A DNA stretch of 60,732 nucleotides, from contig CAYQZL010000006.1 in NCBI GenBank assembly GCA_964421975.1, positions 1 to 60,732 of the forward strand, given 5' to 3'. The position numbers were made by a program, and so were the translations under genes. Shown here one piece after another: positions 12,266 to 42,875 of the stretch. The notes beneath the pieces are model-generated. The model did no database searches. It was not told the DNA's origin and worked only from the letters and a program-made list of their open reading frames with translations. This DNA comes from an uncultured Rikenellaceae bacterium. GTDB taxonomy: Bacteria > Bacteroidota > Bacteroidia > Bacteroidales > VadinHA17. The stretch's first letter is position 1, and every line of letters starts with the position of its first letter.

Positions 12266-12268
12266 ATA

Positions 12269-12970: not shown

Positions 12971-12979
12971 TTTTCCTGA

Positions 12980-14143
12980 TTATAGATTTACCGGTTGAAC
13001 ACGTCTTATTCTCCTTTTAATATTTGACTGAACCACAAAATGATCGATAAGCGGCGCAAAAAGGTTCATCAGAAGAATTGCAAGCATCACACCTTCGGGG
13101 TATGCCGGATTAAGCACCCTGAAAAGCACTGATAATATCCCTATGAGGAATCCGTAGATCCATTTACCCTTCTCTGTCTGTGCTGCTGTAACGGGATCAG
13201 TTGCCATGAAAACAGCTCCGAAGGCAAAACCACCCATTACAAAATGATAATAAAAAGGCAGTTCCATATACTCATTTGCCGCGAAAGCATTCAGCAATAA
13301 ACCCATTCCCAGACCTCCGGCAAATACGCTTAATATGATCTTCCAGCTTCCGATACCGGTAATTATCAGGATAAATGCACCTATCAAAATGGCCGCTGTT
13401 GAAGTCTCACCGACTGAACCGGGGATCGTTCCTATAAACATTTCCATGAACGACGGAAGATCTGCACTTTCTCCCTGCGCACACAATGCAAGAGGAGTGG
13501 CTCCCGAATAGCCATCAACCACATTCAGTCCGGCGGTAAGTCCGTCAGTCCATACTTTATCACCTGTCATCCAACCGGGATAACTGAAAAATATAAATGC
13601 CCTTGCCAGAAGTGCCGGATTAAAGACATTCATACCTGTTCCGCCGAATACTTCTTTTCCAAGTATAACTGCAAAAGCAGTGGCAAGTGCAAGCATCCAG
13701 AGAGGAACATCGATTGGCATGATCAATGGTATCAGCAGACCTGATACAAGAAATCCTTCATTGATCTCATGTCCTCTTATCTGTGCGGCGGTAAATTCAA
13801 TCCCAAGCCCCACAACATAACTGACTATTATAAGGGGTAGTAGTCTCAGAAATCCATACCAGAACATAAATAAAACCGTTGCATCTGTTCCGGTCGATCT
13901 GAAATGCTGAAGGCCGGTATTGTAACAACCGAAAAGAAGGGCGGGAACAAGGGCAATCAAAACTACGGTCATTGTCCTTTTGAGATCTATACTGTCGCGT
14001 ATGTGGGAACCCTTAAAGGTTACCCTATCCGGAACAAACAGGAATGATTCGAAACCCTCAAATACCGAATGAAGCTTCCGGAATTTACCTCCTTCAGAGA
14101 AGTGAGGTTTAAGTTTATCTAATTGTTTTCTAAGGGAATTCAT
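12980..14143 (-). CDS. nqrB: Na+-NQR subunit B
   Basis: HIRDSIDLKRTM, KEVFGGTGMN, FMN motif SGATPL, MATDPVT, YPEGVMLAIL. Confidence 0.96.
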   Translation of the reverse strand: MNSLRKQLDKLKPHFSEGGKFRKLHSVFEGFESFLFVPDRVTFKGSHIRDSIDLKRTMTVVLIALVPALLFGCYNTGLQHFRSTGTDATVLFMFWYGFLRLLPLIIVSYVVGLGIEFTAAQIRGHEINEGFLVSGLLIPLIMPIDVPLWMLALATAFAVILGKEVFGGTGMNVFNPALLARAFIFFSYPGWMTGDKVWTDGLTAGLNVVDGYSGATPLALCAQGESADLPSFMEMFIGTIPGSVGETSTAAILIGAFILIITGIGSWKIILSVFAGGLGMGLLLNAFAANEYMELPFYYHFVMGGFAFGAVFMATDPVTAAQTEKGKWIYGFLIGILSVLFRVLNPAYPEGVMLAILLMNLFAPLIDHFVVQSNIKRRIRRVQPVNL

Positions 14144-14164
14144 TATGCAAGTATCTCTGTAATA

Positions 14165-15517
14165 TTAACTCATTTCCTTTTTCATCAGATCCAGACCTTT
14201 TCTGACTATGTACTGAATCTCTGTTTTTGACGGACAGATAAATTCGCAAAGTGCAACATCCTCTTCCGCGATCTCATAAATACCAAGATTCTCCATCAGA
14301 TCTATATCTTCGGCAAGGATTGCTTTAAAAAGGTTCATCGGATAGATATCCATGGGAACAACCTTTTCATACTGCCCTGTCAGAACAAAAGCTCTTTCCC
14401 CGCCGTGCAGGTTGGTATCGATACTGAATGATTTTGACGGTAAAAGACTGGATAAGAAGGTACGGTAAAAGCTGAATTTATCCGCTCCGGGTGCAGCCCA
14501 TCCGAAAAACTCAAAGTGATCACCTTCCTTAATGACAGTGATCTGTGAATCATAATACCCCAGGAAACCTCCTGCAGATATTTTGCACCCTGTAAGCACA
14601 TTTCCGCTAATATATCTCAGACTGCCCGGCTTCACATTATCCTTTACAATATTTGCTACCGAACTGCCCGACAACATCTTATAATACTGAGGTTTGACTA
14701 CCTCCGAACCGGTCAGGGCCACTATTCTCTCAGGATCATACCTGCCCTCGGTGAATAGTCGTCCGATGGCATAAATATCCTGCAGGTTTACAAACCACAC
14801 TACCTCACCTTTGTTTAGCGGATCAAGATGATGGATATGAATCCCTACATTCCCTGCAGGATGGGGCCCTGAAAAATATGATATTTCCACATCAGGGCAA
14901 TCAGCAAAAAGGGCCGGAGCCTTTTCTTTCCCGTTCAGGATCAGATTAATCTTGCCGTCAGTAAGTTTTGATACAGCTTTTATACCAGTAAGGAATAATT
15001 TATTATCGGAATTTTCTATAATGAAATTATAATCCGGAGCCAGAGGAGCAGTATCAAATCCGGAAATAAATACCGATTTGGGCTTGTCTCCCGGCTTTGC
15101 AACCACGTGATAGGGTCTTTGCCTTATTGCCGGCCACAAACCTGAACTGATCAGCATTTCCTTTATCCTTTCAGGACTGAGAGAGCCCGGATCAGTCTTC
15201 ACAAAATCGACATATTCATCACCTTTTTTTTCGACAATAACCTCCAGTATCTTACGGCGCTCACCTCTTTCAACAGACAACACAGTCCCGCTTACAGGAG
15301 ATGTGAAAAGGATCTCGGGACGGAGCTTGTCATGGAACAAAGCCGATCCGGCTTTAACCTTGTCACCCGGCCTCACATCCAGCTTGGGAATAAGCCCCGG
15401 AAAATCTGAAGGACTGACTCCGAAATGATCCGGAACTGCCACCGGGCTTATGATCTTGTCAGCTTTCCCAATCAGAGGGATATCTAATCCCTTTTTCAAC
15501 CTTATTGTTCTGGACAT
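14165..15517 (-). CDS. nqrA: Na+-NQR subunit A
   Basis: IRLKKGLDIP, FTSPVSG, GPHPAGNVG, EEDVALCEFICPSK. Confidence 0.96.
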   Translation of the reverse strand: MSRTIRLKKGLDIPLIGKADKIISPVAVPDHFGVSPSDFPGLIPKLDVRPGDKVKAGSALFHDKLRPEILFTSPVSGTVLSVERGERRKILEVIVEKKGDEYVDFVKTDPGSLSPERIKEMLISSGLWPAIRQRPYHVVAKPGDKPKSVFISGFDTAPLAPDYNFIIENSDNKLFLTGIKAVSKLTDGKINLILNGKEKAPALFADCPDVEISYFSGPHPAGNVGIHIHHLDPLNKGEVVWFVNLQDIYAIGRLFTEGRYDPERIVALTGSEVVKPQYYKMLSGSSVANIVKDNVKPGSLRYISGNVLTGCKISAGGFLGYYDSQITVIKEGDHFEFFGWAAPGADKFSFYRTFLSSLLPSKSFSIDTNLHGGERAFVLTGQYEKVVPMDIYPMNLFKAILAEDIDLMENLGIYEIAEEDVALCEFICPSKTEIQYIVRKGLDLMKKEMS

Positions 15518-29941: not shown

Positions 29942-30775
29942 TCATTTGATAAGGAAAATATCTCCGGGGAGTTCAGGAACAACACCTTTTTCCCGTCCCT
30001 TGCTGAAAAGCTCGGATATTGCCCTTTTTCCCTCAGATCCCAGTTCGTGTGTAAAATCATTAACATATAATTCAATATGACTTTCAATTACTGATTTCCT
30101 CATTTCTCTGGCATTCATCTCAATGAAACCGCTGATGTCCTGCCCATGTTTTACTGCATAGTTAATACTTCTTTTAATCACACGGTTTACTTTCATTGCC
30201 ATATCCGAAGGAATACACCTGTTGACCGCGATCAGACCAAGGGGTATAGGCAGACCTGTAAGTTTTTCCCAGTACTGACCCATATCAGCAATTTTTATAA
30301 GTCCTTTTTCGTGGAAAGTGAACCTGGTTTCATGTATGATAAGACCCGCATCAGCTTTATTTTCCAACACTGCATCAACAATACCCGAAAACAGGTATTC
30401 GGTTTTGTTTACCGATTCCGGCCAGGCAAGGCTGAACAAAAGGTTTGCAGTGGTATATTTTCCCGGGATTGCGATCCTTGAACTGCATATTTCTTCATCA
30501 GTCAGCTTTTTCCTGCCTATCAGCAGGGGACCATTCTTATAACCCAGGGCACTGCCCGAATTAAGTATAAGATAATTACCGGCAGCAAAAGCATATGCAT
30601 AACAGCTCATCTTTGTGATATCCGTTGTTCCTGCAAAAGCCTTTTTATTGAGATCTTCAACATCAGCCATAAAATAATCGAACTCAAGACCCTCTGTATC
30701 AACGAGCCCATGTACCATTGCCCCAAAAATATATGTATCATTCGGACAGGGAGAAAATCCAAGAGTCAGTTTCAT
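29942..30775 (-). CDS. mqnD: 1,4-dihydroxy-6-naphthoate synthase (futalosine pathway)
   Basis: LGFSPCPNDTYIF, DVEDLN, GSALG...GPLL, IPGKYTTANLL, LIIHETRF, LPIPLG, HIELYVN. Confidence 0.93.
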   Translation of the reverse strand: MKLTLGFSPCPNDTYIFGAMVHGLVDTEGLEFDYFMADVEDLNKKAFAGTTDITKMSCYAYAFAAGNYLILNSGSALGYKNGPLLIGRKKLTDEEICSSRIAIPGKYTTANLLFSLAWPESVNKTEYLFSGIVDAVLENKADAGLIIHETRFTFHEKGLIKIADMGQYWEKLTGLPIPLGLIAVNRCIPSDMAMKVNRVIKRSINYAVKHGQDISGFIEMNAREMRKSVIESHIELYVNDFTHELGSEGKRAISELFSKGREKGVVPELPGDIFLIK

Positions 30776-30779
30776 CCTT

Positions 30780-31454
30780 TCAGTTGATTGTTGTTAAAAT
30801 ATCTTTTAGTGCCACTGACAGATTGTCAAGTGCGAGTTTAATATCCCATTTCCCACGGTTTCGGGGACCGACTTTGTTTGAAACAGCTCTCAGGGCCATG
30901 TAGGGTACTTTTTCCATACTGCAGACATAGAAGAATGCAGCTCCCTCCATGGTCTCTATATCCGGATAATATTTCAGGAACAATTTGCGGGCTGTTGCAG
31001 CGGTGCCTGTTACAGTATTTACGGTTATTGCCGTAACAGGTCTGAACTTTAATGCAGCCTGTTCAACATATCTGTTTACTGCACTGATTTTTCCGTTGGT
31101 GAAAGGGTATGTCCACGGATCCTGCAGACCTGATTCATAAAGAGCAAGAAAGCCTGAAGCTGTTTCTATTCCTGAATCTGCGAAACAATCCAGTACCGGC
31201 ATCACAACGTCCCCTGTTTTAATGTCGTCCATGAAACTGCCTGCAATTCCGGCATTTATTGCCAGATCAGGACGGGATTCCGTACTAAACCATCTTGTCA
31301 GTGCCCATGCTGTAGCAACCGCACCAACTCCTGTCACAAGCAGATCAACGGATTTATTTCCTGCAATATAACTGTCAGTCTTCTTATCCGGTACAAAAAA
31401 TTTCCTTATAATCCCGGCTTCTGTTTCTGTGGCTGTTACCAGTAATACCCTCAT
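30780..31454 (-). CDS. mqnB: Futalosine hydrolase
   Basis: LLVTATETE, TGVG, NAGIAG, TVNTVTG, ETMEGAAF, RAVSN.VG.RN...WDI; coupled to mqnD. Confidence 0.9.
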   Translation of the reverse strand: MRVLLVTATETEAGIIRKFFVPDKKTDSYIAGNKSVDLLVTGVGAVATAWALTRWFSTESRPDLAINAGIAGSFMDDIKTGDVVMPVLDCFADSGIETASGFLALYESGLQDPWTYPFTNGKISAVNRYVEQAALKFRPVTAITVNTVTGTAATARKLFLKYYPDIETMEGAAFFYVCSMEKVPYMALRAVSNKVGPRNRGKWDIKLALDNLSVALKDILTTIN

Positions 31455-31548
31455 GTATTATATTTACAGAATCAGTTCAATCAATAAGAGCTTAAATATA
31501 TTTAAAAAGATCAACTATATTGGTTAATATTGCAAGCTAATTGAACAA

Positions 31549-31962
31549 ATGATGATATATCTTACCCGCCGTGAAAGATTCAGTGCTGCCCACAGGATGT
31601 TCAGGCAGGACTGGACGGATGAAAAAAACATGGAGCTTTTCGGAAAATGTTCCAATCCGAAATGGCACGGACATAATTATGAACTTTTTGTTACGATAAA
31701 AGGAGAAGTATCGTCCGAAACCGGGTTTGTAATGAACATTAGTACTCTTAAAGAGATTATCAGGGAAAGGATAACAGAAAAGATAGATCACAAGAATATA
31801 AATCTCGAGGTCCCTTTTATGGAAGGTAAGATTGCAACCACCGAAAATCTTGCCGTTTCAATATGGGAAGAACTCAGGCCCTTTATCGAAAAAGAAGGTG
31901 CAAAGCTTCATTGTGTAAGAATTTGTGAAACTGAAAATAATTCAACCGAATACTATGGCTAA
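31549..31962 (+). CDS. queD: 6-carboxytetrahydropterin synthase (QueD/PTPS)
   Basis: [28 protein letters not shown]. Confidence 0.92.
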
Positions 31963-32602
31963 AATAATTAAAGACGCGCAGAATGAGGAGACAACCGTAC
32001 GAAACGGTTATAATAAAATTGAATCATGGAACGAAGAAAATATAAAAGAACTCTCGGGAATATACTACAGGGTACTCCAGCTTCTTGGTGAAGATCCTGA
32101 TCGCGAAGGGTTAAAGAAGACCCCGGAAAGAGTTGCAAAAGCATTGAATTTCCTTACTATGGGGTACTCCATGAATCCCTGCCAGATAATCAATTCTGCC
32201 AAGTTCAGGGAAGATTACAGACAGATGGTCATTGTAAAGGATATAGACATTTATTCCATGTGTGAACATCATATGCTCCCCTTTTTCGGTAAAGCACATG
32301 TTGCCTATATACCTGATGGTTATATTACCGGTCTAAGCAAACTTGCCAGAGTTGTGGAAGCATTCAGCCGCCGGCTGCAGGTTCAGGAAAGACTGACCGT
32401 TCAGATCAGGAATACGCTTCAGGAGTGTCTCAATCCACTTGGTGTGGCAGTAGTTATTGAAGCACAACACATGTGCATGCAGATAAGAGGTGTTCAGAAA
32501 CAGAATTCGGTCACGACAACATCAGCCTTTACCGGTATTTTCCTTTCAAACCTAAACACCCGTGAAGAGTTTATTCATCTGATAGGTTCAAGACTTCATT
32601 AA
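31955..32602 (+). CDS. folE: GTP cyclohydrolase I
   Basis: [42 protein letters not shown]; ATG 31955 overlaps the queD stop. Confidence 0.96.
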
Positions 32603-33497: not shown

Positions 33498-36470
33498 CTA
33501 TAAAGGCTTCATTATTACCCCTTTATGTTTTCGTCCATCAATTCTGATATCCATTGGTTTGTCAAATCTCACATGCCTTACCGAGTTGTCTTCATAAACC
33601 GGGGTCATATTGTTGAGATAATCAACATCATAGTGACCTTCATTAATAAAGGGATTAATGGTGAAATAACCCACTCCGAAAGAAGTAAGGTTCTGAAAGA
33701 AATGTGTACCCTGGCTCGGATCGATCCGGTAGTTCTTCAGACCTGACTCAACTATTAATCTTGCAGCCGAGATCTGGGCCCATTTGACCGGTATTCCAAG
33801 CCACGGGTCGGTAGAACCCCATCTGCCGGGTCCGATCAGCACATATCCTTTTCCCTGCATGGCAAAAGAGGAATTCAGATTTTCAATTGTTTCTGCCAGA
33901 TTCTTGTTATGAGACGGATTGAAAGACTCGGGTTTTACATAAACAAGGTCCGAAATACCTTTAAATACACCATGTCCGAGTGCCGATCCGGAAAAAATAA
34001 TTGTATCAGCCGGATTTATATTTTCGATATTTATATTGTATGCTTCATCAGTATGTACTATCGGCCTTATCTGAAGAAAATTGAATGTCTTCGGTGTCCC
34101 GGCAGGAGTCTCAAGATTACAGGCAAATTCAATTTCGATGGGATTATTCATCTCTCTCTGTCCGAGTTCCAGTAATGTGTTCAATATGTCGGCCAGCGGA
34201 AAAAGATTGTGCTGAAGTATCCCTGCGAAGGATATTATTCGCCTGCCGGCCGACATAATACCGTCTCTCATGACATTGTTAGCATAATCGTAAGTTGAAG
34301 CCAGGTATTTCATTGCCCCGTCATTTACAGCATCCCTGATATCAATCCGTGGTATGTTAACACCGTCATCCGTGGATGGAACAAAACTGTTGATGTTAAG
34401 GTCCAGTGCCCTGAAAATTTTCTGGGTGTCGCGCAGGGCGGTTTCAGGTGATGAAAGCTGAAGTATTTTCTTTGGCATCTTCGGACAGAAACGCAGAGAC
34501 AATCCTCCTTCAACAATCAGTTTCCCGAGTCCGAAAGCAACATTTGCGATCCCGTCTTCTGCTTTCTCTGAACCTATGGGATAATAATTAATTGACCTTG
34601 CCACACCTGAAAATGTGGGATAAAATATATCGCCATGGCGGTTTCCGCAAACCTCCTGAAGCACAATGCCCATTTTTTCTTCATCAATAACATTGCTTGT
34701 GGCGGTCATATATGCTTTGCTGGCTTTGTAAAATACAGAAGCATAAACCTCCTTTATTGCATCCGACATTGCCTTTATCATGAGCTTGTTATCGGTCAGC
34801 CTGGGGATCATGTATGTTGAATAGACACCGGCAAATGGCTGATAATGTGAATCTTCAAGCTTGCTTGATGATCTTACCGCTATGGGATGGTTACGTGACA
34901 CTGCCAGATATGCATAGAAATCCTGGTAAACATGCCCGGGCAGCTCTGCAACAAGGAACCTGTTCAGTATTTCATTATCCGGAAGATCTGAAAGAGCAAC
35001 CGAATAAAGGTTGTTATGATCCATGAATTCATCGAAAACATCGGTGCTCAATACCACTGTTCTTGGTATTGTGATCAGAACATCCGTGAACTTGTTATAT
35101 AGCTTGTTAATCTTTATTATCCTGTTAATGAACGCCAGTCCTCTTGCTTTACCTCCGATTGAACCTTCACCGATACGTGAGAATATCTGGTACTCATCAA
35201 AGCTGGATTTATCGAATTTGGCTATGACACCTCTTCCCTTTCCCAGCCGGAAACTGGAAATGGCCACATAGAGAAAACGCCTCATCTCATCAACAGTGGG
35301 AAAGTCCTCCTTACTGATATACTTGAACATCTGGGCAACAGGAAAAAGAGCCCTTGCATTGAGCCACTTGGAGAAATGGTTCCTGGTGGCATGATACTCA
35401 AGAACATTATCCGGAACTGTCAGAATCTTCTGCTGAAGGCTCTGCAGGTCCGTGGCAATAGCTATCGGTTCCAGGGTAACCGGATTTCTGAAAACAAAGG
35501 GACCGAAAGCCAGATTCTGTATTATGAAATTACGCAATTCAAGAGAGAGGGTCTTGGAATACTTATATATGAATCCTGCTCCCATCTCCTCAGCTTTCCA
35601 TTTATGATCAAGATTGGATGATTGCAGCAGGAAAGGGACCTTATCATCGTCGTCCATTACGATCTTACACAATTCTATACCTGCATTTTCATCCTGGATA
35701 TTATCCCTTTTATAACTTATATCGGAGATCACCCCGAGAACATTATACTTATACTTACTGTATAATGCGATTGCATCATTGAAATTATTTGCCAGGAGTA
35801 TTTTAGGACGCCCTCTCATTTTAAGCATCCTCTGATGCTCATTTAATGCTTCCCTCTGGAAATCTAGTGACTGCTGAAGCACGATCCTGTAAATGTTGGG
35901 AAGATATGATGAAATATATCTGATAGAATTCTCGATAAGTATTATTGCCTGAACGCCGACTCTTTCAATATCATTATCGGCATTCATTTTATCCTCAATA
36001 AGCTTTATGATTGCAAGTATCAGCGATGCATCACCAAGCCAGCAGAATACATAATCTATGGCACTCAGATCCTCACCTTCAAGTCTGAGGGAGACTTCCC
36101 TTGAAAAATATGTCAGTACAACTATCGGTATATCCGGATAATCACCTTTTATCCTTTTGGCAAGAGCAAAAACATCTGTTCCCTTCAGGCTCACCATTGA
36201 GATCACCAGGTCGATTTTTTGCTCCCTCAGTATCCTGAACGCATCTTCAGCATTATCTGTCTGAACAAATATTGGAGGATAACGCAGATTCAGCGATACA
36301 TATTCATTGAAGATCTGTTCATCGATCCTTCCGTCCTCTTCCAGCATGTAATTATCATAACTGCTGCAGATAATCAACACCCTGTGTATCCTTTTCTGCA
36401 TCAGAAGATCAAAGGATGTATCGGTGAAATCATATTTTTCAAGGTCAAGCACCCCTCCTACAATAGTCAT
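33498..36470 (-). CDS. Receiver-domain / PEP-synthase-like ATP-grasp / phospho-His protein, paralog A (no pyruvate-binding barrel)
   Basis: Pseudo-REC; REC (VISD250, PFLLQS, FIYK); ATP-grasp (IGGKARG, AVRSS..ED...FAG, FGLGK.IVEG, IEFA, QIRP); C-terminal SQGTH923FF. Confidence 0.8.
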   Translation of the reverse strand: MTIVGGVLDLEKYDFTDTSFDLLMQKRIHRVLIICSSYDNYMLEEDGRIDEQIFNEYVSLNLRYPPIFVQTDNAEDAFRILREQKIDLVISMVSLKGTDVFALAKRIKGDYPDIPIVVLTYFSREVSLRLEGEDLSAIDYVFCWLGDASLILAIIKLIEDKMNADNDIERVGVQAIILIENSIRYISSYLPNIYRIVLQQSLDFQREALNEHQRMLKMRGRPKILLANNFNDAIALYSKYKYNVLGVISDISYKRDNIQDENAGIELCKIVMDDDDKVPFLLQSSNLDHKWKAEEMGAGFIYKYSKTLSLELRNFIIQNLAFGPFVFRNPVTLEPIAIATDLQSLQQKILTVPDNVLEYHATRNHFSKWLNARALFPVAQMFKYISKEDFPTVDEMRRFLYVAISSFRLGKGRGVIAKFDKSSFDEYQIFSRIGEGSIGGKARGLAFINRIIKINKLYNKFTDVLITIPRTVVLSTDVFDEFMDHNNLYSVALSDLPDNEILNRFLVAELPGHVYQDFYAYLAVSRNHPIAVRSSSKLEDSHYQPFAGVYSTYMIPRLTDNKLMIKAMSDAIKEVYASVFYKASKAYMTATSNVIDEEKMGIVLQEVCGNRHGDIFYPTFSGVARSINYYPIGSEKAEDGIANVAFGLGKLIVEGGLSLRFCPKMPKKILQLSSPETALRDTQKIFRALDLNINSFVPSTDDGVNIPRIDIRDAVNDGAMKYLASTYDYANNVMRDGIMSAGRRIISFAGILQHNLFPLADILNTLLELGQREMNNPIEIEFACNLETPAGTPKTFNFLQIRPIVHTDEAYNINIENINPADTIIFSGSALGHGVFKGISDLVYVKPESFNPSHNKNLAETIENLNSSFAMQGKGYVLIGPGRWGSTDPWLGIPVKWAQISAARLIVESGLKNYRIDPSQGTHFFQNLTSFGVGYFTINPFINEGHYDVDYLNNMTPVYEDNSVRHVRFDKPMDIRIDGRKHKGVIMKPL

Positions 36471-36481
36471 ACGATACTGTT

Positions 36482-39400
36482 TTACTGATTCAATGTAATG
36501 ACAGCCAGTCCTTTTTTCCCATCCATTCGGACCATAAGCGGTTTTTCAAACCTGATATGCCTGAAGAATTCACCAGTTCCGATTATTTCCTGACCCTTAA
36601 GCTTGTCCCAGTTCATCAGACCGTCATTAATCCCCTCATTGACTGAGAAGTATCCCACATTCATAGCGGTAACATTATGGAAAAAATGGGAACCGAGTGA
36701 TGCATCAAGGTAATAACCAGGAAGACCGATCTCCACAATCACTTTAGCATTTGAGATTTGCGGCCAGACAACCGGTATTCCAAGGAAACGGTCCTTTGTT
36801 CCCCATCTGCCCGGACCGATAAGGATATAATTGCGGTTTTCACGGATAAGACTATCATTAATCTTTTCTATCTCATCAGCCATTTCAAGTGTCCTAAGAT
36901 TAGTGAACTTTTCAGGTTCAACATATACCACATCTGTAATATTACTGATAACACCATTGCCCATACTTTTTTCGGTCCTGAGAAGCAGATCATCATAATT
37001 GATACTGTCAGGATCAATTTCATAATCCGCCCCAATCCCGGTAAGAGGCTTAATCTGAAGAAGGTAAAACGTTGCATTTCCGTTTTCATCCTTTGTGAGA
37101 TCGACTGCAAATTCAATCTCGGAAGGATTACCAATAGCCTCTTCCACAACTTCCAGTATCGTTTTCAGGGTTGGGGCCAGAGGTACAAAATTATATTTCA
37201 GGATATTGGCAAAGTTTATCACCCTGGGCCCTGATGTTTCCAGACCGGGAGTAATTGTATCATTGTCAACATTTAAGACAGATGCCGTATGATTAATTGT
37301 TCCATGGGATTCCGCTTCACTGATATCGAGGCATACCAGCCCTGCTTTTTCGCCATCAAGCAGATCTATTTCCTGCTTCTTCATATCAACAGCATAAAAG
37401 CGAACCTGTGAATTCTTATAAAGATCCCTTTGCGATATAATGTCCATGTTGGGATATTCCGGACAGAATCTGAAAGCCCTTTCTCCCTCTGCAACATAAT
37501 GCCCCAGACCTACAGCCACTACAGCCACTCCATCTTCAGGTTTCATATGAGAAACAGGGTAAAAATTATATGACTGAGCCGTACCGCTTATATGAGGATA
37601 ATAAACATCCCCAAACCTGTTCCCCACTACTTCCTGTATCACAACAGCCATTTTTTCAAGCTCTATCTTGTAATTTATTGCCTCAAAATATGTCCTGGAA
37701 CTCTTTGAATAGATCGATGAAAATACAAGTTTAATGGCTCCGGTAAGTTGTTTCAGTCGTATTTCAAACTCGTGGTGATTATTTGGAAGTATATATGTCT
37801 CAAATATCCCCGAGAATGGCTGGCTGAGTGAATCCTCAAAGAGACTTGAAGATCTTACAGCCAGTGGTTTCCCGATATGCTTCAGAAATATCCGCAATTC
37901 TTTCTCAAGGGTATAGCTCAGGCTTCCCTCGATGAACATCTTCTGGATAAGGGCATAATCTTTAATCTCTTTGATCTTTTCCCACAAATGATTACGTTCC
38001 ATAAACATATCAAACTCGTCAGTACCGATAATGGCCGTGACGGGTGTCTTGATATTAATCCCGGGTAATAATCTTCCCAGTTCAAAACTATAAATAAGTG
38101 TATTGATGAATGCCAGGCCTCTGCCCTTTCCTCCCAGCGATCCGCTGGACAGGCTTACCACATTGGCCTCATCGGCAACTGCTGATTCCTCGAAATTAAC
38201 TACTCTCCCTTTATTCTGTTCCCTGCGTCTTTTCCTTATCAGGTCGAGAAGATATTCCCTCAGTTCCTTTATACTTTTAAAATCAGATACTTTTATGGGG
38301 TTGATCTGCCAGGCTATTTTAACTTCTCCCCTTGCCATCAGCCATTGGGAAAAATGATTTCCAAGCGCATGATATTCAAGCGAATCTTCAGGGATTGTTT
38401 CCAGATATGCCTCAAACTCCTTCATAGACTTTGCAACGGCAATCTGTCTTCCCTTGTCATCCCTGTAAACAAAATGTCCGAATCCGAGATAATAATTTAT
38501 AAAGGACTTAAGATCCTGCATCAGTCCTTCGGAATTCTTATTTATGAAATTTGATTTGAGTGCATATGCATGCCTTGCATTTTCCGGATCAGCCGACTGT
38601 ATAACCGTGGGTAATTTCGGAAGCCGTGTCTTTATATGGCTGATAAGCTCAAAGCCTGCCGTATCATGATCTTTCCCGTTCTTTGTGAACCTTATATCAG
38701 AGATAACACAGAGCAGATTGTTTTCATATTTATTATAAATTGTAATTGCATCCTCCCAGTTAAGGGCAAGAAGTATCTTCGGCCGGGTTTTCAGTTTCAA
38801 TACCTTGTAAAGCTCATCCGTTGATACATCCTCTATAAGATGTCGTGTCTGATCCATCACAAGAGTATAAAGCATGGGCAGATAGCTCGAGTAGTATTCG
38901 GCTGAATCTTCCACCAGAAGGATTACACCGGTCAGACCTTTTCTGGTATCGTTGTCAACATTGACCTTGTCCTCAAGAAGATTGACCATTGCAAAGAACA
39001 CCTTCGATTCTCCTGTCCAGACGAAATAATTGTCAATAGGTACTCCGACTGCTTTCTGTTTCCTTATATAAGCCACATCTTCGGGATAATTAAGAAGAAG
39101 GTAAACGGGCATATAAGGATATTTGTATTTAATATTTCTGCAGAGTTTGATCGGCACATCCTTGTCGAGTCCCACCATAATGATAACCATGTCATAATGC
39201 CTGGCTTTAAGCCGGTTGAAAGCTTCCTCCTCGCCCGATACTCCGGTAAGTCTGGGTAATGAAGTAAGGCTCATCTGGTGATACTCTCCCAGCATATGAT
39301 CAGCAAATCTTCCTTCACCTTCAATAGAATAAGCATCATACAGATTCGCCACAAGAAGAATTTCCTTTACCTTGAAAGGCTGCAGATCGTGGAAAACATC

Positions 39401-39928
39401 CCTCTCGGCATTATGACGTTCCAGGAACTTCTGCAGTAACTGCCTGGAGGAGAGATCTTTAATTTCCTCCACATCTTCACCGGGGATGGATCTTCCCAGA
39501 ATAATATCACGCGCTTTTGAACTGTTGATATATCCGGTAATAAGATTTGCAATATTCAGGATCAGGTCCCTTTCTTCCTTTAAAAAAGGGCCTTCATATT
39601 CAATTTTGAATTCCTGTGTATAATAAACCTGTATTACACCCTTTTCATCGTCAATGGTATTGAATTCCTGCTCCATTTTCCATTGAGACTCAACGAAACC
39701 GGGAGTTTCAAATGATTTACCACGGTATTTGATCCTTGCTTCGGTATATTTCGGATATTGCCATGCAGCGGGCAGAAGGAGGACGATCTGCTGAAGGGTT
39801 TCATCAACAGGTTTGGATTCCTTAAGGATATAGGTGGTCTGGTTTATACACCCAAGTTCCTTTAAACGTTCATGTTGTTCATGGAGTAAACGATGGTACT
39901 CCGGGCTTATCTGGTTTTTATCTTCCAT
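36482..39928 (-). CDS. Paralog B: N-terminal sensor-like domain + pseudo-REC + REC + ATP-grasp + phospho-His domain
   Basis: ERLKEL.C...AWQYP...ARI...GPFL.EE N-terminal domain; LVED, VISD411, QS, FINK; LGGKGRG, AVRSS, EIEFA, QIKP; SLGSH1081FF. Confidence 0.8.
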   Translation of the reverse strand: MEDKNQISPEYHRLLHEQHERLKELGCINQTTYILKESKPVDETLQQIVLLLPAAWQYPKYTEARIKYRGKSFETPGFVESQWKMEQEFNTIDDEKGVIQVYYTQEFKIEYEGPFLKEERDLILNIANLITGYINSSKARDIILGRSIPGEDVEEIKDLSSRQLLQKFLERHNAERDVFHDLQPFKVKEILLVANLYDAYSIEGEGRFADHMLGEYHQMSLTSLPRLTGVSGEEEAFNRLKARHYDMVIIMVGLDKDVPIKLCRNIKYKYPYMPVYLLLNYPEDVAYIRKQKAVGVPIDNYFVWTGESKVFFAMVNLLEDKVNVDNDTRKGLTGVILLVEDSAEYYSSYLPMLYTLVMDQTRHLIEDVSTDELYKVLKLKTRPKILLALNWEDAITIYNKYENNLLCVISDIRFTKNGKDHDTAGFELISHIKTRLPKLPTVIQSADPENARHAYALKSNFINKNSEGLMQDLKSFINYYLGFGHFVYRDDKGRQIAVAKSMKEFEAYLETIPEDSLEYHALGNHFSQWLMARGEVKIAWQINPIKVSDFKSIKELREYLLDLIRKRRREQNKGRVVNFEESAVADEANVVSLSSGSLGGKGRGLAFINTLIYSFELGRLLPGINIKTPVTAIIGTDEFDMFMERNHLWEKIKEIKDYALIQKMFIEGSLSYTLEKELRIFLKHIGKPLAVRSSSLFEDSLSQPFSGIFETYILPNNHHEFEIRLKQLTGAIKLVFSSIYSKSSRTYFEAINYKIELEKMAVVIQEVVGNRFGDVYYPHISGTAQSYNFYPVSHMKPEDGVAVVAVGLGHYVAEGERAFRFCPEYPNMDIISQRDLYKNSQVRFYAVDMKKQEIDLLDGEKAGLVCLDISEAESHGTINHTASVLNVDNDTITPGLETSGPRVINFANILKYNFVPLAPTLKTILEVVEEAIGNPSEIEFAVDLTKDENGNATFYLLQIKPLTGIGADYEIDPDSINYDDLLLRTEKSMGNGVISNITDVVYVEPEKFTNLRTLEMADEIEKINDSLIRENRNYILIGPGRWGTKDRFLGIPVVWPQISNAKVIVEIGLPGYYLDASLGSHFFHNVTAMNVGYFSVNEGINDGLMNWDKLKGQEIIGTGEFFRHIRFEKPLMVRMDGKKGLAVITLNQ

Positions 39929-40006: not shown

Positions 40007-41029
40007 TTATCTGACCTCCCAGGTCGATCCGCTTTTAAGCAGATCATCCATCGATTTTATTTTGCTGTCAGCTTTGATATTCCTGATCTGTTCTTCCATA
40101 TCGGTTTCATATGTCTTTCCTTCCACGGCTCTTATAACACCAAGAGCAACAGGGTATTCAGGATATCTCATATTGGCAAGCATATAATGTATACCTGGGT
40201 TTGGCTCCTTAGCATCATGTTTGAGAAGATCCCCGGTTGTAATGTCATTCTCTCCTATTCTGACCACTTTCATTTTCAAACCTTCAAGTATCAGGCCTTT
40301 GTCATTCTCCCGCCCAAAGATCATCGGTTCCCCATGCCTCAGGATGATCGTTCTGTCATCCCTGTGATCCCTGCCGGTTACCTTTTCATGGATATTATCA
40401 TTGAAAATAACACAGTTCTGCAACACTTCTATTACAGATGTACCCTTATGTTTTGCAGCTTCAATATATATCTGTGTGGAGAGGGTCACATTGGCATCTA
40501 CCGTTCTGGCAAAGAATTTCCCTCTGGCACCCACAACAAGTTCACCTACAGAGAACGGTTCTTCTATAGTGCCGAAAGGTGAAGTTTTTGTTACCAGACC
40601 TTTCTCGGATGTCGGGGAATACTGACCCTTTGTAAGGCCATAGATCTCGTTATTGAACAATATTATATTAAGATCTATGTTTCGCCTGATCACATGTATG
40701 AAATGGTTTCCTCCGATAGCCAGCGCATCTCCGTCACCAGTGATCTGCCATACCGAAAGGTCAGGATTGGCAATTTTAACTCCTGAAGCAATTGCAGCAG
40801 CCCGGCCATGTATCCCATGGAATCCATAGGTATCCATATAATAAGGGAATCTGGACGAACAACCGATTCCGGATACAAAAACAAATTTTTCTTTGGGTAT
40901 GCCAAGTTCCGACAAAGCCTTCTGGACTGCATTCAGGATGGCATGGTCACCACATCCCGGGCACCATCTCACTTCCTGATCACTTTTAAAATCCTTTGGC
41001 GTATATTGAAATGGTTGTAGTTCTGTCAT
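40007..41029 (-). CDS. korB: 2-oxoacid:ferredoxin oxidoreductase beta subunit
   Basis: WCPGCGD, SGIGCSSR, HGRA, TPP motif GDGDALAIGGNH...NN, YGLTKGQYSPT. Confidence 0.93.
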   Translation of the reverse strand: MTELQPFQYTPKDFKSDQEVRWCPGCGDHAILNAVQKALSELGIPKEKFVFVSGIGCSSRFPYYMDTYGFHGIHGRAAAIASGVKIANPDLSVWQITGDGDALAIGGNHFIHVIRRNIDLNIILFNNEIYGLTKGQYSPTSEKGLVTKTSPFGTIEEPFSVGELVVGARGKFFARTVDANVTLSTQIYIEAAKHKGTSVIEVLQNCVIFNDNIHEKVTGRDHRDDRTIILRHGEPMIFGRENDKGLILEGLKMKVVRIGENDITTGDLLKHDAKEPNPGIHYMLANMRYPEYPVALGVIRAVEGKTYETDMEEQIRNIKADSKIKSMDDLLKSGSTWEVR

Positions 41030-41030
41030 T

Positions 41031-42875
41031 TTAATTGCCCTCCAGTATTTTGATGCAACTATCCTTTATTTCCCTGGTTGTGAAAGGCATACCCTGAACC
41101 TTATTTATCTGTTCAAAGGTAAATTCACCATGTTTCGATCTGAGATAGGAAGCAAACTGCCCCAGGTTTAACTCTGCCACGGCAATTTTTTTGAATCCGC
41201 TGAATATTTCCTTTACATTTTTTGGCAAAGGATTAATATAATTGAAATTTGCAAAGCTTACTTTATAACCCTCAGACTGTAATTCCTTCACAGCAGCAAC
41301 AAGGTAACCCCGTGCTCCGCCCCATCCCACAAGCAGCAGATCGCCGGAAGCTTCACCCCTGATCCTGAGGTCAGGCACTTTTTCAGTAACTCTGGCAATT
41401 TTTTCAGATCTTAATTTCACCATTAATTCGTGGTTTTCCGGAACATAGGAAACGGTTCCCTTAACAGTCTTTTCAAGACCTCCGATACGGTGTTCCAGAC
41501 CTTTTGTACCGGGAATCGCCCAGTAACGGGCTAAGGTATCGCTGTTCCTTTTGTAAGGATGGAATGGTAAATCATCTTTATCTGCATACGGAGGAGTAAC
41601 AGGTGGAAGATCCTTCATATCAGGAACTCTGAATGGCTCTGAACCATTTGCCAGGTAACCGTCAGTAAGCAATATTACAGGTGTCATATGTTCTATTGCA
41701 ATTCTGGCTGCCTCATAGGCAAAATGGAAGCAATCAACCGGGCTACTTGCTGCAATAACAACTACCGGACTTTCACCATTTCTCCCATACAGTGCCTGAA
41801 GAAGATCAGCCTGTTCTGTCTTTGTCGGCAAACCGGTTGAAGGGCCTCCTCTCTGAACGTTTATTATAACGATCGGAAGTTCAGCCATAACCGCCAGACC
41901 TATTGCTTCCGATTTAAGAGCCAGTCCCGGTCCGGATGTTGATGTTACAGCCAGATTTCCGGCAAAACTTGCACCAAGAGCAGAACATATACCGGCTATC
42001 TCATCTTCTGCCTGGAAACTTTTGATTCCAAGATCTTTATGTGCTGCAAACTCCTCAAGGATCCCTGTTGCAGGAGTAATGGGATAGGACCCTATGAAAA
42101 TTTCAAGCCCGGCCTTCTCTGCAGCTGCCATAAGTCCCCAGGCTGTTGCTGTATTCCCGTTTATGTTTCGGTATAAACCGGGGGCTATATTGGCAGGCTG
42201 GATCTTGATAACAGGAGTAAGTGCTTCAATTGTTTCTGCATAATAATAACCGGCCCTCAGTGCTATCTTATTGGCTTCAGCAATTTCCGGCCTTGATGAA
42301 AACTTTATATCGAAATACTGCTCGGTATATTTTAATTTTCTGTCAAACAGCCAGTATACCATTCCCAGAGCAAACATATTCTTTGTTCTGAGTACTGATT
42401 TCGGATCGAGTCCGAAATTCTTCAATGCTTCCTTTACCATTGAAGTTATTGGTGCAGGAATGATATTATAGGTTTCAAGCTTCTCTTCAGCGATGGGATC
42501 GCTTATATAACCTGCTTTCTCAATATTCTTTTCGGTAAAATTATCCTTATCATAAATTATTGTTCCTCCCTGCTTTACCCACAGGGCATTGGCTTTTATT
42601 GCTGCCGGATTCATTGCCACCAGTACATCGGCATAATCACCCGGTGTCTCAATTTCTGAATGTCCGAGATGAACCTGAAAGCCTGAAACACCTCCAACGG
42701 TACCCTGTGGTGCACGTATCTCGGCTGGATAATCAGGGAAAGTAGTGAAATCATTCCCGTAATGGGCAGCAGCATCCGAAAACAGAGTGCCTGTCAGCTG
42801 CATCCCGTCACCCGAATCACCCGAAAAGCGGATGACCACTTCTTCTTTTGAAACAACTTTCGTACACTTAGTCAT
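41031..42875 (-). CDS. korA: 2-oxoacid:ferredoxin oxidoreductase alpha subunit (gamma-alpha fusion)
   Basis: SGDSGDGMQLTG, PAEIR, YPITP, QAEDEIA, TSGPG, QRGGPSTGLPTK. Confidence 0.93.
   Translation of the reverse strand: MTKCTKVVSKEEVVIRFSGDSGDGMQLTGTLFSDAAAHYGNDFTTFPDYPAEIRAPQGTVGGVSGFQVHLGHSEIETPGDYADVLVAMNPAAIKANALWVKQGGTIIYDKDNFTEKNIEKAGYISDPIAEEKLETYNIIPAPITSMVKEALKNFGLDPKSVLRTKNMFALGMVYWLFDRKLKYTEQYFDIKFSSRPEIAEANKIALRAGYYYAETIEALTPVIKIQPANIAPGLYRNINGNTATAWGLMAAAEKAGLEIFIGSYPITPATGILEEFAAHKDLGIKSFQAEDEIAGICSALGASFAGNLAVTSTSGPGLALKSEAIGLAVMAELPIVIINVQRGGPSTGLPTKTEQADLLQALYGRNGESPVVVIAASSPVDCFHFAYEAARIAIEHMTPVILLTDGYLANGSEPFRVPDMKDLPPVTPPYADKDDLPFHPYKRNSDTLARYWAIPGTKGLEHRIGGLEKTVKGTVSYVPENHELMVKLRSEKIARVTEKVPDLRIRGEASGDLLLVGWGGARGYLVAAVKELQSEGYKVSFANFNYINPLPKNVKEIFSGFKKIAVAELNLGQFASYLRSKHGEFTFEQINKVQGMPFTTREIKDSCIKILEGN

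What the first reader, a model, noticed from the sequence alone, without database searches (positions are those of the whole stretch)
33498..39928. Tandem receiver-dikinase proteins: a possible phosphorelay built from PEP-synthase parts instead of a histidine kinase
Seen in both proteins (990 and 1148 aa): a pseudo-receiver; a receiver with beta3 Asp (VISD; D250 in A, D411 in B), beta4 Ser and beta5 Lys; a small helical domain (LEYH...NHFS.WL); and a complete PEP-synthase/PPDK ATP-grasp (GGK, AVRSS..ED, GLG..V.EG, EFA, Q.[RK]P). Each ends in a ~140-aa domain that aligns by eye with the phospho-His swivel domain of PEP synthase: SALGHG ~ RAIGHR, ISAARLIVE ~ MKKASAIVT, SQGTHFFQNLTSFGVG ~ GGRTCHAAIIARELGIP. 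The His is kept (H923 at 33702-04; H1081 at 36686-88). The pyruvate/PEP-binding barrel is missing. Established: dikinases move the ATP beta-phosphate to this His and then to an acceptor bound by a third domain; swapping that domain gives glucan-water dikinase or rifampicin phosphotransferase. Inference: the usual 'PEP synthase' label cannot be right. The phospho-His may donate to the receiver Asp or to a partner protein, or the receivers may gate a dikinase with an unknown acceptor. No classical histidine kinase or response regulator is in the window.
Basis: partly seen in the sequence, partly recalled or inferred. Interest (0 to 1): 0.88.

Follow-up and report, generated by a model that had tools for sequence, protein, structure and literature searches.

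The report
Receiver-controlled dikinase-like pair, GDH-linked
Two adjacent genes encode response-regulator-type proteins that join the ATP-binding half of a PEP-synthase-like enzyme to an undescribed domain with an invariant histidine, and because relatives across many lineages sit beside glutamate dehydrogenase genes, they probably belong to an unstudied control system for nitrogen assimilation.

Summary
Both ORFs are real paralogs (990 and 1148 aa, 36% identity). Each has a pseudo-receiver, a true receiver, a helical linker, a complete PPDK_N ATP-grasp and a ~170-aa C-terminal domain. AlphaFold plus Foldseek confirms the receiver fold, and its Asp/Ser/Lys are invariant in 94 of 94 Bacteroidota homologs. 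The C-terminal His is invariant in every subfamily.

The C-terminal domain is not a detectable PEP-utilizer swivel domain. A confident model (pLDDT 93.5) matches nothing in the PDB, profile searches find no dikinase, and hhalign gives 0.6%. A real swivel sequence finds all known swivel families easily.

The ATP-grasp plus C-terminal core also occurs without receivers and keeps the His. The receivers are therefore inputs, not the obligate phospho-acceptor.

New finding: family genes lie next to glutamate dehydrogenase (28 of 80 species loci; 6 of 6 divergent members) or, as here, next to 2-oxoacid:ferredoxin oxidoreductase. B's extra N-terminal module is shared with a nucleotidyltransferase-bearing partner paralog elsewhere.

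Best reading: a receiver-gated, dikinase-like phosphotransfer enzyme acting on the 2-oxoglutarate/glutamate node. The "PEP synthase" label is wrong. I found no published characterization.

The parts
36482..39928 (-). ORF B, 1148 aa: N-terminal module, pseudo-receiver, receiver, linker, PPDK_N ATP-grasp, C-terminal His domain
39419..39928 (-). B residues 1-170: N-terminal module (ELNC.Y...AWQYP...GPFL.EE) with no Pfam match. It is present in all B-type partners and in the N-terminus of the nucleotidyltransferase-bearing paralog of distant clusters
   Evidence: (E 1.7e-32 to 2.9e-12)
38969..39373 (-). B pseudo-receiver (REC1); acceptor position is Met251
38492..38935 (-). B receiver (REC2): E340, D341, D411 (38696-38698), S445, K464
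38204..38491 (-). B beta-hairpin plus helical linker, DUF5752-like (22.5 bits against a cutoff of 23)
37031..38140 (-). B PPDK_N-type ATP-grasp (residues 597-966); reads LQIKP instead of LQIRP, as in all 13 B-type paralogs
36485..36997 (-). B C-terminal His domain: GPGRWG (R1041), D1046, E1066, S1077, H1081 (36686-36688)
33498..36470 (-). ORF A, 990 aa: pseudo-receiver, receiver, linker, PPDK_N ATP-grasp, C-terminal His domain
35991..36392 (-). A pseudo-receiver (REC1); acceptor position is Met92
35517..35957 (-). A receiver (REC2): E180, N181 (Asp in 88/94 homologs), D250 (35721-35723), S284, K303; (beta-alpha)5 fold with an elongated alpha1 hairpin
35226..35516 (-). A beta-hairpin plus helical-bundle linker (LEYH...NHFS.WL), DUF5752-like
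34029..35162 (-). A PPDK_N-type ATP-grasp (residues 437-814): K441, R533, E781, R802 invariant; nearest solved relatives are rifampicin phosphotransferase and PEP synthases
33501..34013 (-). A C-terminal ~170-aa alpha/beta domain with no match in PDB or BFVD: GPGRWG (R883), D888, E908, S919, H923 (33702-33704), N927; His sits at the N-terminus of a helix
40007..42875 (-). Context: 2-oxoacid:ferredoxin oxidoreductase alpha (41031-42875) and beta (40007-41029), same strand, 78 bp upstream of B. Probably co-transcribed. This neighbour is conserved in 13 of 80 loci

Best explanation
A and B are paralogous response-regulator-class signalling enzymes, not PEP synthases.

Shown. Each has a pseudo-receiver with no acceptor Asp, then a structurally genuine receiver with the full catalytic quintet (Asp250 in A, Asp411 in B). 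A beta-hairpin/helical linker follows, then a complete PPDK/PEP-synthase-type ATP-grasp. The last ~170 aa form an alpha/beta domain of a fold not seen in solved structures. That domain carries an invariant His at the N-terminus of a helix, beside an invariant GPGRWG loop, an Asp and a Glu. The ATP-grasp plus C-terminal domain is an autonomous core that also exists without receivers. B additionally carries an N-terminal input-like module. The B/A pair is the local form of a widely conserved two-partner arrangement.

Inferred mechanism. (1) A histidine kinase encoded elsewhere phosphorylates the REC2 Asp, and this switches the catalytic core on or off. (2) The ATP-grasp binds Mg-ATP and, as in every characterised PPDK_N enzyme, phosphorylates a His on the neighbouring domain, here His923/His1081, probably with the beta-phosphate and release of AMP. 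(3) The phospho-His passes the phosphoryl group to an external acceptor.

Inferred target. Gene neighbourhoods place the acceptor at the 2-oxoglutarate/glutamate node. The most likely target is glutamate dehydrogenase itself, modified at the protein level. In this window's clade the 2-oxoacid:ferredoxin oxidoreductase encoded just upstream is an alternative or additional target.
For: Architecture and paralogy.

REC2. The quintet is invariant in 94/94 homologs. The fold is confirmed by AF2 (pLDDT 93.3) and Foldseek (receivers only, prob 1.00, TM up to 0.79).

ATP-grasp. The catalytic motifs are invariant. The nearest solved relatives are rifampicin phosphotransferase (E 6e-10) and PEP synthases.

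C-terminal domain. The His and the GPGRWG loop are invariant in all subfamilies. The model is confident (pLDDT 93.5), and the His sits at a helix N-terminus after a parallel beta-strand.

Autonomous core. Receiver-less ~570-585-aa forms and two-unit fusions or adjacent pairs exist.

GDH linkage. GDH (NF010633, 839 bits) lies within 10 kb in 28 of 80 species loci and directly adjacent in at least 20. It occurs in several orientations: gdh-FAM-gdh in Flavobacteriia, divergent in Prevotella, Phocaeicola and Paludibacter, gdh-FAM-gdh-FAM in L028, and gdh-B-A-gdh in L017. Six of six divergent members (32-34% identity to A, 41-57% GC) with an informative flank are directly adjacent to GDH.

Kor linkage. 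It is found in 13 of 80 loci, and together with GDH in L008, L015 and L051.

Partner theme. B's N-terminal module is homologous to that of the second paralog and is present in all B-type partners.
Against: No biochemical step has been shown.

The His domain has no detectable relationship to the known phospho-His swivel domain. The 'dikinase via phospho-His' step therefore rests on analogy plus conservation, and the His could instead be a general base or a ligand-binding residue.

The window itself has no GDH in 60 kb. Its link to GDH is by homology of the system, and its own neighbour is the oxidoreductase.

Substrate specificity of that oxidoreductase for 2-oxoglutarate is not established; only the subfamily-level model passes its cutoff.

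Gene adjacency can reflect co-regulation rather than a direct enzyme-substrate relationship.

A has Asn at the second acidic receiver residue, which may weaken its phosphorylation.

No cognate kinase was identified.
Confidence: 0.4

Rival explanations
1. One reading: a self-contained phosphorelay in which the ATP-grasp charges the C-terminal His, and the phospho-His donates to the REC2 Asp of the same protein or of the paralog. This would replace a histidine kinase.
For: The invariant His and the invariant receiver Asp coexist in one chain. No histidine kinase is present in the window. The tandem paralogs could pass phosphate from one to the other.
Against: Receiver-less core proteins and the second paralog subfamily, which has no detectable receiver, keep the His, the GPGRWG loop and the ATP-grasp motifs. 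The His therefore has a role that does not need a receiver. Most genomes carry a single copy at the locus (67 of 80). Orphan response regulators with distant kinases are commonplace (established knowledge). A's own receiver has a weakened acidic pocket (N181).
Confidence: 0.08
2. A small-molecule enzyme of glutamate/2-oxoglutarate metabolism. The ATP-grasp and the C-terminal domain together phosphorylate or ligate a metabolite, for example glutamate, 2-oxoglutarate or a derivative. The C-terminal domain would be the acceptor-binding or catalytic domain, and the receivers would merely tune flux.
For: Known dikinases differ mainly in their acceptor domain (established knowledge: PPDK, PEP synthase, glucan-water dikinase, rifampicin phosphotransferase). 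The C-terminal domain has many invariant polar residues (R883, D888, E908, S919, H923, N927) clustered at the C-terminal edge of a parallel sheet, which is typical of a ligand site. Adjacency to metabolic genes that use 2-oxoglutarate supports it.
Against: The minimal core has only two domains, so one ~170-aa domain would have to be both carrier and acceptor site. No missing step in glutamate or 2-oxoglutarate metabolism calls for such an enzyme (own knowledge). Two receiver domains, an extra input module, and partner proteins with nucleotidyltransferase and phosphoesterase look like signalling rather than catabolism.
Confidence: 0.2
3. A nucleotide-based modification or second-messenger system. 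The conserved partner paralog with a Pol-beta-type nucleotidyltransferase writes a nucleotidyl mark or makes a signalling nucleotide, the Metallophos enzyme erases it, and the A/B-type proteins are regulatory subunits.
For: The cassette gdh - FAM - (PPDK_N + NTP_transf_2 paralog) - Metallophos recurs in L088-L094. B shares its N-terminal module with that paralog. An analogy by function only is adenylylation of glutamine synthetase by GlnE (established knowledge).
Against: The window and nearly all 80 Bacteroidota loci lack the nucleotidyltransferase and the Metallophos gene at the locus. The system therefore works without them nearby. A and B keep full ATP-grasp catalytic motifs, which argues against a purely regulatory role.
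Confidence: 0.1
4. A non-catalytic regulator. The ATP-grasp acts only as an ATP/AMP sensor, and the protein controls GDH or the oxidoreductase by binding, with receiver phosphorylation setting affinity.
For: The gene linkage is equally compatible with this. Pseudo-enzymes are common in signalling (own knowledge).
Against: Every catalytic motif of the ATP-grasp is invariant across members down to 31% identity, including the Mg-binding Glu and the Gln/Arg pair, as are the His-domain residues. That pattern is expected for catalysis, not for sensing alone.
Confidence: 0.1
5. The database label is right: a PEP synthase or pyruvate phosphate dikinase with regulatory domains.
For: The PPDK_N hit. Source annotations read 'phosphoenolpyruvate synthase'.
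Against: There is no PEP_utilizers and no PEP_utilizers_C domain in any of 40 diverse members. NCBIfam PEP-synthase equivalogs score 52 bits or less against cutoffs of 598 or more. Matches to solved PEP synthases cover only the N-terminal half of the ATP-grasp.
Confidence: 0.01

Closest known systems
Rifampicin phosphotransferase (RPH; Listeria 5FBS/5HV1/5HV6, deposited as 'phosphoenolpyruvate synthase')
   Same: It is the closest solved relative of the ATP-grasp (E 6e-10 to 2e-9). It has the same order of ATP-grasp first and a His-bearing domain at the extreme C-terminus, and it has no PEP/pyruvate barrel.
   Different: RPH has a large rifampicin-binding domain and a canonical swivel His domain. 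A genuine swivel probe finds that domain at E 8e-17, whereas the family's C-terminal profile does not find it at all. RPH has no receivers.
PEP synthase / pyruvate phosphate dikinase / glucan-water dikinase (PPDK_N enzymes)
   Same: The PPDK_N ATP-grasp has conserved nucleotide and Mg residues. A His on a separate domain is the expected phospho-carrier.
   Different: The family lacks the PEP_utilizers swivel domain and the PEP_utilizers_C barrel. hhalign against real swivel domains gives 0.6%. Foldseek finds no match despite pLDDT 93.5.
Response regulators with enzymatic output and tandem or pseudo-receivers (e.g. PorX, RssB, PleD)
   Same: A receiver fold with the full quintet precedes an enzymatic output. 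PorX and RssB are among the structural and profile hits. A pseudo-receiver paired with a true receiver resembles PleD-type tandem receivers (NCBIfam PleD partial hit).
   Different: The output is a dikinase-type ATP-grasp plus a new His domain. I found no description of such an output in the searched literature. The receiver has a ~25-residue helical hairpin inserted in alpha1.
GarA/OdhI with PknG in Actinobacteria (functional analogy only; own knowledge)
   Same: It is a phospho-signalling device dedicated to the 2-oxoglutarate node, controlling glutamate dehydrogenase and the 2-oxoglutarate-consuming enzyme. The two conserved neighbours here are GDH and a 2-oxoacid:ferredoxin oxidoreductase.
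   Different: The proteins are entirely unrelated (an FHA domain and a Ser/Thr kinase). The analogy is a hypothesis drawn from gene neighbourhood, not from homology.
PTS Enzyme I
   Same: It has a phospho-His domain that passes phosphate to a protein acceptor (HPr) rather than to a small molecule. This is the model for a protein target.
   Different: Enzyme I is charged by PEP through a barrel domain and uses a canonical swivel, found by the control probe at about 1e-9. The family uses an ATP-grasp and an unrelated His domain.

Membership tests
PEP synthase / PPDK (pyruvate, water or phosphate dikinase) | PPDK_N ATP-grasp nucleotide-binding domain | tested here: met
   PF01326 E 1e-34 (A) and 2.4e-37 (B); 40/40 family members
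PEP synthase / PPDK (pyruvate, water or phosphate dikinase) | PEP_utilizers swivel phospho-His domain (PF00391) | tested here: not met
   No Pfam hit at E<=10 in 42 C-terminal sequences or in 40 full-length members. Profile against PDB finds only chance hits. hhalign gives 0.6%. Foldseek finds no swivel chain. The positive control works.
PEP synthase / PPDK (pyruvate, water or phosphate dikinase) | PEP/pyruvate-binding TIM barrel (PEP_utilizers_C) | tested here: not met
   No hit, and the proteins end after the ~170-aa His domain
PEP synthase / PPDK (pyruvate, water or phosphate dikinase) | Score above the NCBIfam equivalog cutoff | tested here: not met
   Best 51.7 bits against a cutoff of 883; TIGR01418 31.8 against 739.75
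Rifampicin phosphotransferase | Full-length match including the rifampicin-binding and swivel domains | tested here: not met
   NF041857 23.8 bits against a cutoff of 999. The PDB profile match covers only ATP-grasp residues 468-613.
Response-regulator receiver (REC2) | (beta-alpha)5 CheY-like fold | tested here: met
   AF2 pLDDT 93.3. Foldseek hits are receivers only, prob 1.00, TM up to 0.79.
Response-regulator receiver (REC2) | Catalytic quintet: acidic pair, acceptor Asp, Ser/Thr, Lys | tested here: met
   E180, D250, S284 and K303 are 94/94; the second acidic residue is Asp in 88/94, and Asn in A and its nearest relatives
Response-regulator receiver (REC2) | Phosphorylation of the Asp | not testable with these tools
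   Needs biochemistry (acetyl phosphate, cognate kinase, BeF3-)
Pseudo-receiver (REC1) | Receiver homology but no acceptor Asp | tested here: met
   Pfam Response_reg E 1.1e-9. Acceptor position is Met/Trp/Ala/Ile in 94/94. The beta5 Lys is replaced by a conserved F-x-W-x-G.
Classical two-component histidine kinase | HisKA/HATPase_c core in A, B or nearby | tested here: not met
   No such Pfam or NCBIfam hit in A or B. A phmmer HK-core probe finds nothing in the window's ORFs (weak test).
DUF5752 (PF19027) | Score above the gathering cutoff | tested here: inconclusive
   B scores 22.5 bits against a cutoff of 23. 18/40 members match at E<=0.01, best 5.7e-6.
Known anti-phage defence systems (PADLOC) | Match to any PADLOC model | tested here: not met
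   No hits for A, B or a minimal core protein

The most novel reading that the evidence does not exclude
These proteins are the writers of a previously unrecognised covalent-modification system for glutamate dehydrogenase, and in some clades for 2-oxoglutarate:ferredoxin oxidoreductase. A dikinase-type ATP-grasp charges a new kind of phospho-His carrier domain, which then phosphorylates the metabolic enzyme under two-component control. A partner paralog carrying a shared N-terminal sensor module works alongside it, and in some lineages a nucleotidyltransferase and a Metallophos eraser are added. This would be the Bacteroidota counterpart of glutamine synthetase adenylylation or of the GarA/PknG switch. 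It could also explain old reports that Bacteroides GDH activity depends on additional gene products.
Probability: 0.25. Interest if true: 0.85.

Novelty: new variant of a known kind. Interest (0 to 1): 0.7.

Why it matters
Glutamate dehydrogenase is the main entry point of ammonia into biomass in Bacteroides, Prevotella and their relatives. These organisms dominate gut and rumen communities, and how they control the enzyme is poorly understood.

The family is very large. It occurs in major gut genera, yet it is annotated as 'phosphoenolpyruvate synthase', 'CheY-like chemotaxis protein' or 'PEP/pyruvate-binding domain-containing protein'. Those labels will mislead metabolic reconstructions.

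If the mechanism holds, it adds three things:
- a new output class for response regulators;
- a new phospho-His carrier fold charged by a dikinase ATP-grasp;
- a concrete, testable candidate for post-translational control of the 2-oxoglutarate/glutamate node in Bacteroidota.

Even if the target is wrong, the C-terminal domain is a well-defined, uncharacterised domain. It has a confident model, no structural relative, and an invariant active-site-like signature.

Tried and rejected
1. Swivel homology of the C-terminal domain. I tried single-sequence Pfam, Pfam on 42 members at E<=10, profile against PDB sequences, full-length profile against PDB, hhalign against six genuine swivel domains (0.6%, His not aligned to His), and Foldseek against PDB and BFVD. 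All were negative. The controls worked. The order of secondary-structure elements (hairpins, helix, strand, helix, strand, His-helix, strand, strands) loosely resembles a swivelling beta/beta/alpha domain. An extremely remote or convergent similarity cannot be excluded.

2. [quoted passage not shown] I know the title only from the reference list of PMC4539542. The paper is not held. BT1969 is a malic enzyme (PMC8865466) and BT1971 is a catalase (PMC12596196). My belief that BT1970 is gdhA is from memory. The Phocaeicola locus has gdh-FAM...gdh-malic enzyme, which is suggestive. The B. thetaiotaomicron ortholog and its position were not determined: the homolog search with L037 returned Phocaeicola proteins, and L045's intervening gene is a prolyl oligopeptidase. 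The link is not established.

3. Other recurrent neighbours (PheS, hybrid two-component system, MFS transporter, MutS2-like, aquaporin, DPP-IV, RlpA-like) are not nitrogen-related and each occurs in 6 loci or fewer.

4. Defence-system reading: no PADLOC hits.

5. Literature searches found no characterisation of the family. The Prevotella ruminicola nitrogen paper does not mention it.

6. Promoter and terminator scans were uninformative, with counts at shuffle level. No Bacteroidetes-type TAnnTTTG motif lies between korB and B.

7. B's N-terminal module and the second paralog's N-terminal region have no Pfam match.

Full report
**1. The observation**

Two minus-strand ORFs lie exactly where stated: A at 33498-36470 (990 aa) and B at 36482-39928 (1148 aa), 11 bp apart. 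They are full-length paralogs, 36% identical over 982 residues, and B has about 160 extra N-terminal residues. Pfam finds PPDK_N in both (A 437-814, E 1e-34; B 597-966, E 2.4e-37). It finds Response_reg only on the first N-terminal module, and nothing for the last ~170 residues. NCBIfam PEP-synthase, PigC/RedH and rifampicin-phosphotransferase equivalogs match only the N-terminal part of the ATP-grasp, at 52 bits or less against cutoffs of 500-1350. Source annotations of close homologs read 'phosphoenolpyruvate synthase', 'PEP/pyruvate-binding domain-containing protein', 'response regulator' or 'CheY-like chemotaxis protein'.

**2. The receivers**

I used two sequence sets. The first holds 43 diverse full-length family members, 31-51% identical to A, from an exhaustive search of 50%-identity representatives. 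The second holds 94 family proteins from 80 GTDB species loci plus the window.

REC1 is a pseudo-receiver throughout. The acceptor position is Met, Trp, Ala or Ile and never Asp, and the beta5 Lys is replaced by a conserved F-x-W-x-G.

REC2 keeps the whole receiver quintet:

| Residue (A numbering) | Bacteroidota set (of 94) | Diverse set (of 43) |
|---|---|---|
| E180 | 94 | 42 |
| second acidic residue | 88 Asp, 6 Asn | 36 Asp |
| D250 | 94 | 39 |
| S284 | 94 | 37 Ser + 3 Thr |
| K303 | 94 | 39 |

A itself and its nearest relatives have Asn at the second acidic position (N181).

Pfam does not call REC2, so I tested it two further ways. A REC2 profile against PDB sequences returns almost only CheY-like receivers, in the correct register but at marginal E-values (best 0.013). 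An AF2 model of A165-430 has pLDDT 93.3 and pTM 0.89 and shows a (beta-alpha)5 unit with an elongated alpha1 hairpin, followed by a beta-hairpin and a helical bundle. Its Foldseek matches are receivers only (ARR1, PorX, CheY, Rcp1, Spo0F, PmrA) at probability 1.00, with TM up to 0.79 and 2.7 Å. REC2 is therefore a genuine, presumably phosphorylatable receiver. The helical linker matches DUF5752 weakly in 18 of 40 members.

**3. The ATP-grasp**

All nucleotide and Mg motifs are invariant: GGK.RG (K441, R443), AVRSSS..ED (R533), Q605, E779/E781 and LQ.[RK]P (Q800, R802). All 13 B-type paralogs have Lys instead of Arg at position 802. With a full-length family profile, the nearest solved relatives are Listeria rifampicin phosphotransferase (E 6e-10 to 2e-9) and PEP synthases. 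Only ATP-grasp positions ~468-613 align.

**4. The C-terminal domain**

His923 (A) and His1081 (B) are at the stated coordinates. The His is invariant:
- 43 of 43 diverse members;
- every domain copy that covers the position among 150 representatives;
- 93 of 93 Bacteroidota proteins;
- the divergent second paralog subfamily, which reads LSFGTHFFQD.

It sits in the motif PS-x-G-[ST]-H-F-F-x-[ND]. Upstream lie an equally invariant GPGRWG..D..LG[IV]PV.W loop and an [IV]-E strand end.

The claimed homology to the PEP-utilizer swivel domain failed every test.
- No PF00391 hit at E<=10 in 42 C-terminal sequences or in 40 full-length members.
- A 42-sequence profile finds only chance hits in the PDB, at E >= 0.1.
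- hhalign against six genuine swivel domains gives 0.6%, and His is not aligned to His.
- A confident AF2 model (pLDDT 93.5, pTM 0.90) has no Foldseek match at E<=0.001 in the PDB. The best hit is E 0.008 with TM 0.29 or less, and no dikinase, Enzyme I or pyruvate kinase chain appears. BFVD also gives nothing.

The controls show these tests have power. One 94-aa E. coli PpsA swivel segment finds PEP synthases, RPH (8e-17), the pyruvate kinase C-terminal domain (3e-15), Enzyme I (~1e-9) and PPDK (~1e-6). Foldseek also recovered the receiver fold for REC2, which Pfam missed.

In the model, the His lies at the N-terminus of a helix after a parallel strand, and the order of elements loosely recalls a swivelling beta/beta/alpha domain. 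My conclusion is that this is an undescribed domain. Its His is a plausible phospho-carrier by analogy and conservation, not by homology.

**5. The core is autonomous, and paired paralogs are a theme**

The C-terminal domain defines 1743 clusters at 50% identity and is always C-terminal to a PPDK_N domain. Besides the ~1000-aa receiver form, there are ~570-585-aa proteins made only of PPDK_N plus this domain. There are also ~1500-1650-aa proteins with two such units.

In L083, a 580-aa minimal unit is followed, with a 4-bp overlap, by a 1062-aa paralog with PPDK_N, the His domain and a Pol-beta-type nucleotidyltransferase. This is the same combination that is fused in P0196.

B's extra N-terminal ~170 residues match no Pfam family. 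They are homologous to the N-terminal module of that second paralog (phmmer E 1.7e-32 to 2.9e-12). The module is present in every B-type partner of the tandem loci, and it also occurs fused to LuxR-type HTH domains. The window's B/A pair is thus the local version of a conserved two-partner arrangement.

The B-then-A tandem itself is limited to about 13 of 80 species loci. Bacteroides, Prevotella, Phocaeicola, Muribaculaceae, Lutibacter and Gillisia have one copy at the locus.

Together these facts argue that the receivers are regulatory inputs to a self-sufficient catalytic core. They argue against an obligatory His-to-Asp or A-to-B relay.

**6. Genomic context, the main new result**

In the window, the genes directly upstream on the same strand are the alpha and beta subunits of a 2-oxoacid:ferredoxin oxidoreductase (TIGR03710, 649 bits against a cutoff of 483). 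The gaps are 1, 78 and 11 bp along korA-korB-B-A. fabD lies convergent downstream.

I clustered the flanking ORFs of 80 species loci. Only two neighbours are broadly conserved:
- Glutamate dehydrogenase (NF010633, 839 bits): within 10 kb in 28 loci and directly adjacent in at least 20.
- The Kor-type oxidoreductase: 13 loci.
- Both together: L008, L015 and L051.

The GDH arrangement varies, which argues for retained linkage rather than inherited synteny:

| Arrangement | Where |
|---|---|
| gdh-FAM-gdh, two GDHs 57-61% identical | Lutibacter, Polaribacter; Gillisia has a single gdh directly downstream of FAM |
| divergent gdh/FAM | Prevotella, Phocaeicola, Paludibacter |
| gdh-FAM-gdh-FAM | L028 |
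| gdh-B-A-gdh | L017 |

The divergent arrangement was confirmed with independent gene calls in Phocaeicola, where a second gdh next to a malic enzyme lies 4.5 kb away.

I then sampled the seven most divergent full-length members (32-35% identical to A; contigs of 33-57% GC). All six with an informative flank are directly adjacent to one or two GDH genes. The seventh contig starts at the gene. Four of the six are followed by the nucleotidyltransferase-bearing paralog, and three of those have a Metallophos phosphoesterase on the opposite strand.

The window has no GDH, Metallophos or nucleotidyltransferase relative in its 60 kb.

**7. Mechanism**

Shown: the architecture, folds, conservation and context described above.

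Inferred: (a) an unlinked kinase phosphorylates the REC2 Asp and gates the core; (b) the ATP-grasp phosphorylates the invariant His, as in all characterised PPDK_N enzymes; (c) the phosphoryl group goes to an acceptor at the 2-oxoglutarate/glutamate node. GDH itself is the most likely acceptor, and the upstream oxidoreductase is the candidate in this window's clade.

The rivals, with confidences, are given in their own section.

**8. Comparison with what is known, and novelty**

This is not a PEP synthase, PPDK or rifampicin phosphotransferase, because two of the three defining domains are absent. It is a response regulator by its REC2 domain, with an output I did not find described. Ten literature searches returned nothing on this architecture.

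A possible connection to the 1996 report that B. thetaiotaomicron GDH activity depends on gene(s) downstream of gdhA could not be established. The paper is not held, and the reported neighbours BT1969 and BT1971 are a malic enzyme and a catalase.

I rate it a new variant of a known kind: a receiver-gated dikinase-like enzyme with a new His domain. There is a realistic chance that it defines a new regulatory system for GDH.

Noticed in passing
window 40007-42875 (-): The 2-oxoacid:ferredoxin oxidoreductase alpha and beta genes lie directly upstream of B on the same strand, with gaps of 1 and 78 bp. They are probably co-transcribed with B and A. The order ompH-like, Glu racemase-like, korA, korB, B, A is conserved in the window's clade (L002-L015).
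   Followed up: partly
L088-L094 (e.g. L090 3553-13409; L094 265-8510): A recurrent cassette appears in distant lineages: one or two gdh genes, a REC-type family member, a second paralog (N-terminal module + PPDK_N + His domain + Pol-beta nucleotidyltransferase), then a Metallophos phosphoesterase on the opposite strand. It looks like a writer/eraser set.
   Followed up: partly
window 39419-39928 (B residues 1-170); P0480-P0483: B's N-terminal module (ELNC.Y...AWQYP...GPFL.EE) has no Pfam family. It is rare (93 hits), occurs twice in tandem in L019, and is fused to LuxR-type HTH (PF00196) in four ~280-aa proteins. It behaves as a portable input module.
   Followed up: partly
window 35928-35930 (A N181); B LQIKP motif, approx. 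window 37046-37060: There are paralog-specific substitutions. A-type proteins of the window's nearest clade have Asn instead of Asp at the second acidic receiver residue (6/94). All 13 B-type paralogs have Lys instead of Arg in the LQ.RP ATP-grasp motif.
   Followed up: partly
L038 5958-9863, L043, L044 (Bacteroides spp.): A ~1300-aa hybrid two-component system (histidine kinase + receiver + AraC) lies divergently adjacent to the family gene in several Bacteroides species. It is a candidate cognate kinase. It is seen in only 6 of 80 loci.
   Followed up: no
L028 3-8175: Two consecutive gdh-FAM cassettes lie on one strand (partial gdh, FAM 1010 aa, gdh 445 aa, FAM 1006 aa). This suggests one-to-one pairing of a family member with a GDH.
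   Followed up: partly
window 29942-32602: A MqnA-like menaquinone (futalosine-route) gene sits beside a PNP_UDP_1 nucleosidase. Next come 6-pyruvoyl-tetrahydropterin synthase and GTP cyclohydrolase I, whose ORFs overlap (31549-31962 and 31925-32602).
   Followed up: partly
window 9712-15517 (-): Six consecutive same-strand ORFs of 450, 387, 233, 217, 205 and 417 aa have the sizes and order of an Na+-translocating NADH:quinone reductase (nqrA-F) operon. This judgement is from memory and was not checked.
   Followed up: no
window 36758-37234 (+): A 158-aa ORF lies antisense inside B. It has no support and is probably spurious.
   Followed up: no
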